Assembly: GCF_000026545.1 (NCBI RefSeq)
Contig: NC_011601.1
From: Escherichia coli O127:H6 str. E2348/69
Lineage (GTDB): Bacteria > Pseudomonadota > Gammaproteobacteria > Enterobacterales > Enterobacteriaceae
DNA: 64,000 nt
Direction: 5' to 3' (one strand)
Shown: positions 2,204 to 5,200 of the stretch, piece by piece
Layout: every line of letters starts with the position of its first letter
Numbering within the stretch: position 1 is the stretch's first letter
Program-made: the position numbers

Positions 2204-5200
2204 TCAAATGTCGAGATAACGATCACAAAAACGACAATGTGAAAATTAATCAGAATGACAGGCAAAAAAAACGGCCTCCCGGGGGAAGCCGTAACGAAGT
2301 GCGCGTGTTTTTATGCCGGATGCAACGTAAACGCCTTTTCCGTCCTACGGGGTGGTGCTGTTCGTATGAGGCGCATCAGGCGATAGTAATTTTGCTATCG
2401 AGATAAACGTCCTGCACGGCGTTAATCAGTTTCACGCCGTCAGCCATCGATTTCTTGAACGCCTTACGTCCAAGAATCAGCCCCATTCCGCCTGCGCGTT
2501 TGTTGATAACCGCAGTACGCACTGCATCGCTGAGGTCAGTTTCACCGCCTGCAGCACCGCCGGAGTTTATCAACCCGGCCCGGCCCATATAGCAGTTAGC
2601 TAACTGATAACGCACCAGGTCAATCGGGTTTTCACTGGTCAGTTTGCTGTAGACTCGATCGTCGGTATAACCGTAATTAATCGCTTTATAGCCGCCGTTA
2701 TTTTCCGCCATTTTTTGTTTGACGATATCTGCACCTATGGTTGCCGCCAGATGGTTCGCCTGACCAGTCAGGTCGGCGGAAACATGGTAATCAACGCCAT
2801 CTTTCTTAAAGGCGGAGTTACGCAAATAGGCCCACAGCACTGTCACCATGCCCAGCTCGTGCGCACGTTCAAAAGCCGCAGAAATTTCTTCAATCTGGCG
2901 ACGTGACTCTTCCGAGCCAAAATAGATAGTCGCACCAACCGCCACCGCGCCCATATTGAACGCCTGCTCCACGCTGGCATACAGCGTTTGATCGTAGGTA
3001 TTCGGGTAACTTAGCGTCTCGTTGTGATTAAGTTTGACGAGGAATGGAATGCGATGCGCGTAACGCCGCGATACCGATGCCAGCACGCCGTAAGTTGACG
3101 CCACACAGTTACAGCCCGCTTCGATCGCCAGTTCAACAATGTTTTTCGGGTCAAAGTAGAGCGGGTTAGCGGCAAATGAAGCTCCGGCAGAGTGCTCAAC
3201 GCCCTGGTCAACCGGCAGAATAGAAAGATATCCTGTGCCAGCCAGACGCCCGGTGTTGTACAACGTCTGCATATTACGTAACACCGCTGGCGGGCGATTA
3301 TTGTCAATCATCACGCGGTCTACGTAGTCATGTCCGGGGAGATAAAGCTGGTCAGAAGGAATAGTCATACAACGGTGCTGTAAAAGGTTGTCGGCGTCTT
3401 TGCCAAGCAACTGCGCAATATCTGTCATTACTATGCTCCCGTAAATTCCGATTGGATATCGGCTATGGATTGTCCTGGCCCGCCTTTTGCGGGTAATCAT
3501 AATCCTGGTCGTTACGAGCGAGTTTTTCCATCTTTTGGATGTTTTTTTCAGCGTGTTCTGTTGGCTCGATTCATCAGGAAAAATGTTACCGCGGTCAAGT
3601 TTTCACCACAAAGGTATTTAAAAGGTATTACTAAGTGGTATTGTCATCGCGTACCTTACATTACCTGTCATGAAGGAATTAAAAGATGAAAACAACAGCA
3701 AAGCTGTCGTTCATGATGTTTGTTGAATGGTTTATCTGGGGCGCGTGGTTTGTGCCATTGTGGTTGTGGTTAAGTAAAAGCGGTTTTAGTGCCGGAGAAA
3801 TTGGCTGGTCGTATGCCTGTACCGCCATTGCGGCGATCCTGTCGCCGATTCTGGTTGGCTCCATCACTGACCGCTTTTTCTCGGCGCAGAAAGTGCTGGC
3901 GGTATTGATGTTCGCTGGTGCGGTGCTGATGCATTTCGCTGCGCAACAGACCACTTTTGCCGGGTTCTTCCCGTTACTGCTGGCCTACTCACTAACCTAT
4001 ATGCCGACCATTGCGCTGACTAACAGTATCGCTTTTGCCAACGTGCCGGATGTGGAGCGTGATTTCCCGCGCATTCGTGTGATGGGCACTATCGGCTGGA
4101 TTGCCTCTGGTCTGGCATGTGGTTTCTTGCCGCAAATGCTGGGGTATGCCGATATCTCACCGACGAACATCCCGCTGCTGATTACCGCCGGAAGTTCTGC
4201 TCTGCTTGGTGTGTTTGCGTTTTTCCTGCCAGACACGCCACCAAAAAGCACCGGCAAAATGGATATTAAAGTCATGCTCGGCCTGGATGCGCTGATCCTG
4301 CTGCGCGATAAGAACTTCCTCGTCTTTTTCTTCTGTTCATTCCTGTTTGCGATGCCACTGGCGTTCTATTACATCTTTGCCAACGGTTATCTGACCGAAG
4401 TTGGCATGAAAAACGCCACTGGCTGGATGACGCTCGGCCAGTTCTCTGAAATCTTCTTTATGCTGGCATTGCCGTTTTTCACTAAACGCTTTGGTATCAA
4501 AAAGGTATTGTTGCTTGGTCTGGTCACCGCTGCGATCCGCTATGGCTTCTTTATTTACGGTAGTGCGGATGAATATTTCACCTACGCGTTACTGTTCCTC
4601 GGTATTTTGCTGCACGGCGTAAGTTACGATTTTTACTACGTTACCGCTTACATCTATGTCGATAAAAAAGCTCCCGTGCATATGCGTACCGCCGCGCAGG
4701 GGCTGATCACGCTCTGCTGCCAGGGCTTCGGCAGTTTGCTCGGCTATCGTCTTGGCGGTGTGATGATGGAAAAGATGTTCGCTTATCAGGAACCGGTAAA
4801 CGGACTGACTTTCAACTGGGCCGGGATGTGGACTTTCGGCGCGGTGATGATTGCCATTATCGCCGTGCTGTTCATGATTTTTTTCCGCGAATCCGACAAC
4901 GAAATTACGGCTATCAAGGTCGATGATCGCGATATTGCGTTGACACAAGGGGAAGTTAAATGAAAACAGAACGTATTCTCGGTGCTCTTTATGGGCAGGC
5001 GTTAGGGGATGCGATGGGGATGCCCTCCGAGCTTTGGCCGCGCAGTCGCGTCAAAGCACACTTTGGCTGGATTGACCGTTTTCTGCCTGGGCCAAAGGAG
5101 AATAACGCGGCCTGTTATTTTAACCGCGCCGAATTCACCGACGATACCTCGATGGCGCTGTGTCTGGCGGATGCGTTACTGGAACGTAAAGGCAAGATCG

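What the first reader, a model, noticed from the sequence alone, without database searches (positions are those of the whole stretch)
3611..3643. Three spaced GGTATT direct repeats just upstream of yegT
aaaGGTATTtaaaaGGTATTactaagtGGTATTgtcat lies 44-75 bp upstream of the yegT start in the fbaB/yegT divergent region, with 11- and 13-bp spacing (about one helical turn). It could be phased binding sites for a regulator, possibly the adjacent GntR-family YegW, or simply promoter elements.
Basis: seen in the sequence. Interest (0 to 1): 0.2.

Follow-up and report, generated by a model that had tools for sequence, protein, structure and literature searches.

The report
GgaR (YegW) operator at yegT promoter
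The three GGTATT repeats are real, are conserved across enteric bacteria, and are very probably the still-undefined DNA site where the repressor GgaR (YegW) shuts off the yegTUV operon; the link between this repressor and this operon is already published, so this is a useful refinement rather than a surprise.

Summary
GGTATT occurs at 3613, 3624 and 3637 on the + strand, spaced 11 and 13 bp, 44-73 bp upstream of the yegT ATG in E. coli E2348/69. This is far more than chance would give.

Saito et al. 2024 showed that YegW (GgaR) is a single-target, ADP-glucose-sensing repressor of yegTUV. They gave no operator sequence. Their gel-shift probes, mapped onto the window, confine the strong site to 3581-3664, which contains the repeats.

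A second array with the same 11+13 spacing lies inside yegT at 4493-4522. It sits exactly where their weak site must be.

In 75 species with YegW orthologues, AAAGGTATTnnAAAGGTATTA is about 97-99% conserved, while its flanks are about 65% conserved. The third repeat is conserved only as TGGTAnnnT, the signature of an extended -10 promoter element.

YegW is a HutC-type regulator and keeps the residues that read GG in the NagR-DNA structure. The site is a tandem repeat, not the usual palindrome, as in NagQ, FarR and NanR.

Verdict: a GgaR operator overlapping the yegT core promoter. It is a new member of a known kind, of modest interest. No base-pair-resolution experiment exists yet.

The parts
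3610..3618 (+). Repeat 1, AAAGGTATT (GGTATT at 3613-3618): proposed GgaR half-site, overlapping the upstream edge of the -35-like element.
   Evidence: GGTATT is 99.5% conserved across 74 distinct upstream sequences. It is GGTATT in 73 of 75 species and GGTATC in 2.
3621..3629 (+). Repeat 2, AAAGGTATT (GGTATT at 3624-3629), 11 bp after repeat 1: proposed GgaR half-site, in the promoter spacer.
   Evidence: 99.3% conserved. The 11-bp spacing is the same in 75 of 75 species.
3636..3644 (+). Repeat 3, TGGTATTGT (GGTATT at 3637-3642), 13 bp after repeat 2: predicted extended -10 element (TGnTAnnnT), probably also a weaker third half-site.
   Evidence: The information profile conserves T,G,G,T,A and then T at 3644, but not 3641-3643. 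GGTA is present at +24 in 73 of 75 species. Pantoea dispersa lacks the third GGTA but has TGcTAGATT 3 bp further on.
3617..3622 (+). TTTAAA, a -35-like hexamer (4/6 match) 16 bp upstream of the predicted -10, lying between repeats 1 and 2.
   Evidence: Read from the sequence. It is conserved as TTnAAA. It falls below the threshold of the generic promoter scan. Inference only.
3651..3655 (+). GTACC, conserved, 14 bp after repeat 3. It is either the predicted transcription start region (TSS about 3651-3653) or an inverted GGTAC half-site.
   Evidence: 96% conserved and present in most species. It is not shared by the intragenic array. Its role is unresolved.
4493..4522 (+). Intragenic auxiliary array in yegT: GGTATC at 4493, GGTATT at 4504, GGTCTG at 4517. 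It has the same 11+13 spacing. Proposed low-affinity GgaR site.
   Evidence: It is the second-best position weight matrix (PWM) hit in the 64 kb window, at 14.6 bits against -13.8 for the next. It lies in probe 5, which binds weakly; probe 6 starts at 4502 and removes the first copy. Codon choice is biased toward the motif. BLAST aligns it to the promoter site (H20).
3686..6926 (+). The yegT-yegU-yegV operon, the regulated target: nucleoside:H+ symporter family, ADP-ribosylglycohydrolase family, PfkB-type kinase.
   Evidence: Repression by GgaR is reported in PMC10819704.
6900..7646 (-). yegW (ggaR), a HutC-subfamily GntR repressor, convergent with yegV.
   Evidence: Pfam GntR plus UTRA domains. 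Closest solved structure is NagR/YvoA. R51, R61 and G82 are invariant.
3581..3602 (.). CRP-like site AAATGTTACCGCGGTCAAGTTT, centred at 3591.5. That is -59.5 to -61.5 from the predicted TSS.
   Evidence: 15 of 22 matches to the CRP consensus, the best in the spacer. TGTTA and TCAA are conserved. CRP binding in the fbaB<CRP>yegT spacer was found by genomic SELEX (PMC3105977). The assignment to this sequence is my inference.

Best explanation
The repeats are the operator of GgaR (YegW), the adjacent HutC-type GntR repressor, and they are superimposed on the yegT core promoter. Each GGTATT is one winged-helix half-site, with the GG read by Arg51 and Arg61 and the wing at Gly82. The half-sites are arranged as tandem direct repeats (AAAGGTATT-N2-AAAGGTATT, then TGGTATT 13 bp later) rather than as the usual HutC palindrome. 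GgaR bound to them covers the -35-like TTTAAA, the spacer, and the extended -10 TGgTATTGT, so RNA polymerase is excluded and yegTUV stays off. ADP-glucose releases GgaR. A weaker copy of the array about 880 bp downstream inside yegT is a low-affinity auxiliary site. Shown: the repeats exist and are non-random; GgaR binds a fragment that must include bases 3581-3664; GgaR represses yegTUV but not fbaB; the motif is conserved and co-occurs with yegW. Inferred: that the repeats themselves are the contacts; the promoter assignment; and the stoichiometry (one dimer in tandem mode, or several dimers cooperating).
For: (1) Published binding. ChIP-chip gave a single genomic peak at fbaB/yegT with a shoulder inside yegT. 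Deleting ggaR raises yegTUV mRNA about 30-fold and leaves fbaB unchanged. ADP-glucose dissociates the complex (PMC10819704). (2) Probe mapping. Probe 2 (3495-3736) binds. Probe 1 (ends at 3580) and probe 3 (starts at 3665) do not. The site therefore needs bases within 3581-3664, and the repeats occupy 3610-3644. (3) The weak site. Probe 5 (4257-4554) binds. Probe 4 (ends at 4404) and probe 6 (starts at 4502) do not. The only other GGTAT-N6-GGTAT in the 64 kb window is at 4493-4508 and is cut by the end of probe 6. A PWM built only from other species ranks this site second in the window, at 14.6 bits against -13.8 for the next hit. (4) Phylogenetic footprint in 75 species with YegW at 78-99% identity. 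Positions 3610-3631 are 97.4% conserved, against 63-65% for the immediate flanks and 73% for the rest of the spacer. The 11- and 13-bp spacings are fixed. The pattern extends to Yersinia and Providencia at 69-72% YegW identity, and to Pantoea at 62% for repeats 1-2. (5) Specificity. In 1.21 Mb of loci, GGTAY-N6-GGTAY occurs 74 times upstream of yegT, 29 times at the intragenic site, and 11 times elsewhere, close to the roughly 9 expected by chance. AAAGGTATTNNAAAGGTAT occurs exactly once in each of 71 of the 85 loci held; the other 14 have none. (6) Synonymous codons at the intragenic site favour the motif. GGT is used 77% of the time against 18% gene-wide, GTA 57% against 12%, and TTR 73% against 13%. 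(7) YegW has GntR and UTRA domains and aligns to NagR. NagR reads GG of its GTGG half-site with Arg38 and Arg48 and uses wing Gly69 (PMC4333415). The equivalent residues R51, R61 and G82 are invariant in YegW orthologues. (8) Precedent for direct-repeat operators in this family: NagQ (TGGTATT), FarR (TGTATTAWTT) and NanR (GGTATA x3) (PMC4494728; PMC5343134; PMC8012715).
Against: No footprint, mutagenesis or short-oligonucleotide binding test exists. The probe mapping leaves 84 bp, which also holds the conserved GTACC and part of the 5' UTR. Conservation of promoter-proximal DNA could reflect RNA polymerase or another factor. Repeat 3's conservation pattern fits a -10 element better than a GGTATT half-site. 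The arrangement fails the HutC palindrome rule, and two canonical dimers 11 bp apart would clash, so an unproven binding geometry is required. The intragenic site is complete in only 29 of 74 species, and the codon-bias test does not correct for shared ancestry. The transcription start is predicted, not measured, and the generic promoter scan found nothing at its threshold.
Confidence: 0.8

Rival explanations
1. The repeats are only core-promoter DNA (-35, spacer and -10, plus AT-rich tracts) and are conserved because RNA polymerase uses them. GgaR binds elsewhere within 3581-3664.
For: Repeat 3 is conserved as TGGTAnnnT, an extended -10 signature, and TTnAAA sits at the -35 distance. In most species repeat 2 reads GGTATTAT, which contains a TATTAT -10-like hexamer.
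Against: The invariant GG of repeats 1 and 2, one of which lies in the promoter spacer, has no counterpart in sigma-70 consensus elements. The same array recurs inside the yegT ORF, where the published weak GgaR site maps. The G at 3638 is the free position of TGnTA, yet it is nearly invariant.
Confidence: 0.08
2. GgaR recognises a two-fold symmetric element in the same interval, such as GGTA-N11-TACC (3637-3655) formed by repeat 3 and the conserved GTACC. Repeats 1 and 2 would then be accessory or bound by another protein.
For: HutC regulators normally bind palindromes (PMC4494728). GTACC is 96% conserved at a fixed 14 bp from repeat 3. In many Citrobacter species the arms are a perfect GGTAC-N9-GTACC.
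Against: The GG-to-CC distance is 15 nt, against 6 in the canonical site (PMC4333415). The intragenic site binds GgaR but has no GTACC partner. Repeats 1 and 2 are more conserved than repeat 3. Leminorella and Intestinirhabdus lack GTACC but keep repeats 1 and 2.
Confidence: 0.08
3. The tandem 11-bp repeats are sites for a different regulator that prefers direct repeats, for example an OmpR-family response regulator. HprR genomic SELEX lists a yegT-adjacent peak.
For: OmpR-family response regulators typically bind tandem repeats about 10-11 bp apart (my recollection; not checked here). A table in PMC5934670 lists 'ybaS/yegT' among the HprR SELEX targets.
Against: The motif co-occurs strictly with yegW and yegTUV, across changing neighbouring genes. 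GGTAT is a HutC-type half-site. The published GgaR binding pattern is explained without another factor.
Confidence: 0.03

Closest known systems
NagQ operator (HutC-subfamily GntR repressor of N-acetylglucosamine genes in alpha-, beta- and some gammaproteobacteria)
   Same: It belongs to the same protein subfamily. Its motif is described as direct or tandem repeats of TGGTATT (PMC4494728; PMC5343134). That is essentially the same word as here: AGGTATT twice and TGGTATT once. From memory, and not verified here, the NagQ copies are separated by 4 bp, which gives the same 11-bp period.
   Different: The regulon, effector and taxa differ. Orthology of YegW to NagQ was not tested. Here a third copy doubles as the -10 element, and a second array lies inside the first gene.
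E. coli NanR on the (GGTATA)3 operator
   Same: A GntR-family repressor whose operator is three tandem GGTAT-containing repeats overlapping a promoter. Two or more correctly spaced repeats are needed. Three dimers bind cooperatively through an N-terminal extension (PMC8012715). YegW also has an extra N-terminal segment of 21 residues before the wHTH, modelled as a confident helix at residues 3-17.
   Different: NanR belongs to the FadR subfamily, with an all-helical effector domain rather than UTRA. From memory, its repeat period is shorter, about 8-9 bp. Cooperativity and stoichiometry of GgaR are untested.
FarR/MngR operator (E. coli, HutC subfamily)
   Same: A HutC-type regulator cited as binding direct repeats, TGTATTAWTT (PMC4494728).
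   Different: The unit sequence differs (TGTATTA, not GGTATT). I did not examine that locus.
Canonical HutC operators (NagR/YvoA, DasR dre sites, consensus NyGTMTAKACNy)
   Same: The half-site chemistry is the same: a GGT core read by two arginines and the wing glycine, all conserved in YegW. The repressor is released by a sugar-nucleotide or sugar-phosphate effector.
   Different: Canonical sites are inverted repeats with GG and CC 6 nt apart, bound by one symmetric dimer. The yegT site has no such palindrome.
Primary plus auxiliary operators, such as lac O1/O2
   Same: A strong promoter-proximal operator and a weaker look-alike inside the first structural gene, used by a low-copy single-target repressor. 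Saito et al. estimate about 10 dimers per cell and themselves compare GgaR with LacI.
   Different: The separation is about 880 bp. Looping or a roadblock role is entirely untested. The auxiliary site is not universally conserved.

Membership tests
GgaR (YegW) operator | Lies within DNA shown to bind the purified regulator and to be occupied in vivo | tested here: met
   The published primers were mapped onto the window. The binding fragments require bases 3581-3664, and the repeats are at 3610-3644. This is indirect, since 84 bp remain.
GgaR (YegW) operator | The motif recurs at the regulator's other known binding site | tested here: met
   The array at 4493-4522 has the same 11+13 spacing. 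It lies inside weakly binding probe 5 and is truncated by non-binding probe 6.
GgaR (YegW) operator | The motif co-occurs with the regulator across genomes and is conserved above background | tested here: met
   75 of 75 species with a complete yegT start have the two-repeat core. Conservation is 97% against about 65% in the flanks. The core is also present in Yersinia, Providencia and Pantoea.
GgaR (YegW) operator | Binding and repression are lost when the repeats are mutated; a footprint covers them | not testable with these tools
   This needs a wet experiment. None was found in the held literature.
Canonical HutC-subfamily operator | Two-fold symmetric GT-N4-AC palindrome (NyGTMTAKACNy) | tested here: not met
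   All three copies are on the + strand. No inverted partner lies at the canonical distance. The only inverted repeat the repeat finder reports in the spacer (3580-3603) lies upstream of the GGTATT repeats.
Canonical HutC-subfamily operator | The regulator has a GntR wHTH plus a UTRA domain, and keeps the GG-reading Arg/Arg/Gly triad | tested here: met
   Pfam PF00392 and PF07702. Alignment to NagR with an offset of 13 residues gives R51, R61 and G82. These are invariant in 12 orthologues at 62-100% identity.
Direct-repeat GntR operators (NagQ / FarR / NanR type) | Two or more same-strand copies of a GGTAT-like unit at fixed short spacing overlapping a promoter | tested here: met
.
Direct-repeat GntR operators (NagQ / FarR / NanR type) | Cooperative binding of several dimers, or a tandem DNA-binding-domain arrangement | not testable with these tools
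   The only related observation is that YegW has a conserved extra N-terminal helix. That is not evidence of cooperativity.
Sigma-70 extended -10 promoter (for repeat 3) | TGnTAnnnT with a -35-like hexamer 16-18 bp upstream | tested here: met
   TGgTATTGT at 3636-3644 and TTTAAA at 3617-3622. Conservation is restricted to the T, G, T, A and T positions plus the extra G. It falls below the generic scanner's 9-of-12 threshold.
Sigma-70 extended -10 promoter (for repeat 3) | A mapped transcription start 6-9 nt downstream | not tested
   No TSS data were accessible. The dRNA-seq paper was not held, and Saito et al. give no TSS.

The most novel reading that the evidence does not exclude
GgaR may work like NanR rather than like a classical HutC repressor. 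Its DNA-binding domains would engage tandem GGTATT half-sites independently. Dimers would cooperate through the conserved extra N-terminal helix, or would bridge the promoter array to the look-alike array about 880 bp inside yegT. That intragenic array would be held in place by selection on synonymous codons. The result would be a lac-like repression loop maintained by only about 10 dimers per cell.
Probability: 0.2. Interest if true: 0.5.

Novelty: new member of a known kind. Interest (0 to 1): 0.3.

Why it matters
The regulator-target pair and its effector were published in 2024, but the operator was left as a 242-bp fragment. Pinning it to AAAGGTATT-N2-AAAGGTATT plus a -10-embedded third copy gives three things:
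- A testable base-pair model of how yegTUV, an operator-controlled locus linked to glycogen and ADP-glucose, is switched.
- A motif for regulon prediction in other Enterobacterales.
- Another example of a GntR/HutC protein using tandem rather than palindromic half-sites, which bears on how flexible these dimers are.

The intragenic copy with biased codons is a small but clean case of a regulatory site constraining synonymous positions.

Tried and rejected
- **Promoter and terminator scan of 3400-3720:** it found no promoter at its 9-of-12 threshold. The promoter assignment therefore rests on the conservation pattern, not on that tool.
- **Rfam scan of 3300-3900 at E<=1:** nothing was found, so no known RNA element explains the conserved 5' UTR.
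- **Possible autoregulatory site upstream of yegW:** GGTATT-N5-GGTAC hits about 75 bp upstream of yegW in several species looked promising. They lie in the 3' coding end of thiD (GGT ATT GGN CCG GTA CAT) and were rejected. E. coli has no GGTAT near the yegW -10 element.
- **Apparent fbaB divergence:** an apparent strong divergence of FbaB (55-89% identity) was my own error. The query was translated one base out of frame. With the correct frame, FbaB is 92-100% identical in 69 loci and 100% identical between K-12 and E2348/69.
- **Hidden palindrome:** none exists around repeats 1 and 2 apart from the trivial TTTAAA. The repeat 3/GTACC inverted repeat is not shared by the intragenic site.
- **Literature:**
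  - No operator, footprint or consensus is given in Saito et al..
  - No later GgaR paper is in the library.
  - YegW is absent from the Suvorova et al. supplements.
  - A 'NagQ/TGGTATT' search mostly returned an unrelated place name.
  - The E. coli dRNA-seq TSS paper is not held.
- **AlphaFold2 monomer of YegW** (pLDDT 79.7): it shows an extra N-terminal helix and a low-confidence linker at residues 90-109. It cannot address DNA geometry.
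Full report
**1. 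What is in the sequence.**
The window matches E. coli O127:H6 E2348/69 (100% over the 601 bases tested). The finding lies in the 257-bp spacer between fbaB (- strand, start 3428) and yegT (+ strand, ATG 3686). Downstream are yegU, yegV and the convergent GntR gene yegW.

GGTATT occurs at 3613-3618, 3624-3629 and 3637-3642 on the + strand. The first two copies are really a 9-bp unit, AAAGGTATT.

It is the only such triple in the 64 kb window, and none arose in 200 Markov simulations. GGTAT-N6-GGTAT has two occurrences in the window against 0.07 expected. K-12 has the same repeats. A 51-bp stretch around them is present once, at 95% identity or more, in 5,420 of 5,426 complete E. coli genomes.

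**2. What is already published.**
Saito et al. 2024 (PMC10819704) showed the following:
- YegW, renamed GgaR, gives a single ChIP-chip peak at fbaB/yegT, with a second summit inside yegT.
- It represses yegTUV about 30-fold but does not affect fbaB.
- It is released from DNA by ADP-glucose.
- It is present at about 10 dimers per cell.

They give no footprint, consensus or transcription start. I found no later paper that does. YegW is also absent from the large comparative study of GntR motifs.

**3. Mapping their probes.**
I placed their primers on the window.

| Probe | Window coordinates | Binding |
|---|---|---|
| Spacer probe | 3173-3672 | binds |
| 1 | 3305-3580 | none |
| 2 | 3495-3736 | strong |
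| 3 | 3665-4005 | none |
| 4 | ends at 4404 | none |
| 5 | 4257-4554 | weak |
| 6 | 4502-4962 | none |

The strong site therefore needs bases in 3581-3664. The repeats (3610-3644) sit in the middle of that interval.

The only other GGTAT-N6-GGTAT in the window is at 4493-4508. It extends to GGTATC-N5-GGTATT-N7-GGTCTG, with the same 11+13 spacing. By my count it matches the K-12 promoter array at 29 of 40 aligned positions (read). BLAST itself aligns the two sites at 81.6% over 38 bp (H20). Probe 6 begins at 4502, so it has lost the first copy and holds the second only 2 bp from its end. That explains why probe 5 binds and probe 6 does not.

**4. Comparative evidence.**
- **Loci collected.** A scan of species-representative genomes returned 80 loci with YegW orthologues at 78-99% identity, from Escherichia to Pectobacterium, Cedecea and Leminorella. 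In nearly all of them yegTUV is convergent with yegW.
- **Upstream motif.** All 75 species with a complete yegT start have AAAGGTATTnnAAAGGTAT about 70-80 bp upstream of the ATG, always at 11-bp spacing. In 73 of them GGTA follows 13 bp later.
- **Conservation.**

| Region | Column conservation |
|---|---|
| 3610-3631 (repeats 1-2 block) | 97.4% |
| Repeats 1 and 2 themselves | 99% |
| Immediate flanks | 63-65% |
| Rest of the spacer | 73% |

- **Specificity.** In 1.21 Mb of these loci, the relaxed pattern occurs 74 times at the promoter, 29 times at the intragenic position and 11 times elsewhere, against about 9 expected by chance. The strict pattern occurs exactly once in each of 71 of the 85 loci held; the other 14 have none.
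- **PWM scan.** A position weight matrix (PWM) built from the other species scores the window's promoter site at 60.7 bits, the intragenic site at 14.6 bits and the next best position at -13.8 bits.
- **More distant orthologues.** Yersinia intermedia (72% YegW identity) and Providencia (69%) keep all three copies at 11/13 spacing. Pantoea dispersa (62%) keeps repeats 1 and 2 but not the third. Providencia also keeps the intragenic pair.
- **Codon bias.** Across 69 species the intragenic site uses motif-forming synonymous codons far more often than the rest of yegT does. GGT is used 77% of the time against 18%, GTA 57% against 12%, and TTR 73% against 13%. This suggests selection, although shared ancestry is not corrected for.

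**5. The third repeat is also a promoter element.**
Its information profile conserves T-G-G-T-A, then three free positions, then an invariant T at 3644. That is TGnTAnnnT, the pattern of an extended -10 element. TTnAAA lies 16 bp upstream, between repeats 1 and 2.

This predicts a start at about 3651-3653, within the conserved GTACC. The best CRP-like sequence in the spacer (3581-3602) would then sit at about -60/-61.5. CRP binding in this spacer has been reported (PMC3105977).

Pantoea supports the dual reading: it loses the third GGTA but has TGcTAGATT 3 bp further along. The G at the free position of TGnTA is nevertheless nearly invariant, which argues that GGTA is also selected as a half-site. 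All of this is inference, because no TSS data were available.

**6. Why GGTATT fits YegW.**
YegW has a GntR wHTH and a UTRA domain, and its closest solved relative is NagR/YvoA. In the NagR-DNA structure, the half-site GTGG is read by Arg38, Arg48 and the wing Gly69 (PMC4333415). The aligned YegW residues R51, R61 and G82 are invariant across orthologues down to 62% identity. So each GGTATT is a plausible single-domain half-site.

**7. How it differs from the family norm.**
HutC operators are normally palindromes, with GG and CC 6 nt apart. This site is a tandem repeat. By simple geometry, which is my inference, two canonical dimers offset by 11 bp would compete for the same major-groove segment. 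Three arrangements remain possible:
- One dimer binds with its two domains in tandem.
- Several dimers each use one domain.
- Dimers bridge to the intragenic array.

Direct-repeat operators are documented exceptions in this family. They include NagQ (TGGTATT), FarR (TGTATTAWTT) and NanR (GGTATA x3). In NanR, three dimers cooperate through an N-terminal extension. YegW has a conserved 21-residue N-terminal segment that is modelled as a confident helix. Whether it mediates cooperativity is unknown.

**8. Verdict.**
The repeats are most likely the GgaR operator overlapping the yegT promoter (confidence about 0.8). Repeat 3 serves as the extended -10 element, and a weaker auxiliary copy lies inside yegT.

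The regulatory link itself is already known. What is new is the base-pair definition of the operator and its tandem architecture. It is a new member of a known kind and of modest interest. The decisive tests are short-duplex binding and footprinting with GG-to-CC mutants, TSS mapping, and synonymous recoding of the intragenic site.

Noticed in passing
window 3475-3491 (+): CTGGCCCGCCTTTTGCG is the sigma-54 ChIP-seq site 'OS20', listed 183 bp upstream of yegT in PMC4591121. It is present unchanged here. It would point toward yegT, upstream of the GgaR operator. Its function is unknown.
   Followed up: partly
window 3581-3602: A conserved CRP-like sequence, AAATGTTACCGCGGTCAAGTTT, matches the consensus at 15 of 22 positions. 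CRP binding in the fbaB<CRP>yegT spacer was reported by genomic SELEX, with an effect on yegT left open (PMC3105977). It is centred about -60/-61.5 from my predicted yegT start.
   Followed up: partly
L070 7948-7962 (also L071-L074 and L068), about 40 bp upstream of the yegW start: Pectobacterium and Atlantibacter hermannii carry a perfect everted palindrome, AATACC-AGT-GGTATT, overlapping the yegW -10 element (TGgTATTAT). This suggests GgaR autoregulation in those genera. E. coli has GATATACT there and no GGTAT, consistent with the constant GgaR level reported in K-12.
   Followed up: partly
window 7647-7697 and all loci upstream of yegW: A TATACT -10-like hexamer about 35-40 bp upstream of the yegW ATG is conserved whatever gene lies upstream: yegX in Escherichia, thiD in most other genera.
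   Followed up: no
window 3658-3662: Escherichia carries a 5-bp insertion (ACATT, duplicating TTAC/ATTAC) in the predicted yegT 5' UTR, relative to almost all other genera.
   Followed up: no
window 3656-3685: The predicted 5' UTR (CTTAC..CCTGTCATGAAGGA) is 87% conserved, and Enterobacter-type species carry a distinct variant (CCCTCTCTGACATGCAGGA). There is no Rfam match. The reason for the conservation beyond the Shine-Dalgarno sequence is unknown.
   Followed up: no
window 6900-6926: yegV and yegW overlap by 27 bp at their 3' ends (convergent). The pair is listed as an excludon candidate in PMC12288877.
   Followed up: no
L026 (Salmonella enterica subsp. arizonae), about 8834-9330: yegW and the upstream operator (GGTATTTAAAAGGTAT at 9326) are retained. 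However, only a 51%-identical match to the first 147 residues of YegT remains, and yegU and yegV are absent. The target operon appears to be decayed while the regulator and operator persist.
   Followed up: no
YegW residues 1-21 (window 7584-7646, - strand): YegW has a conserved N-terminal segment ahead of the wHTH, about 13 residues longer than in NagR. It is modelled as a helix at residues 3-17 with pLDDT 85-93. L8 and L12 are invariant.
   Followed up: partly
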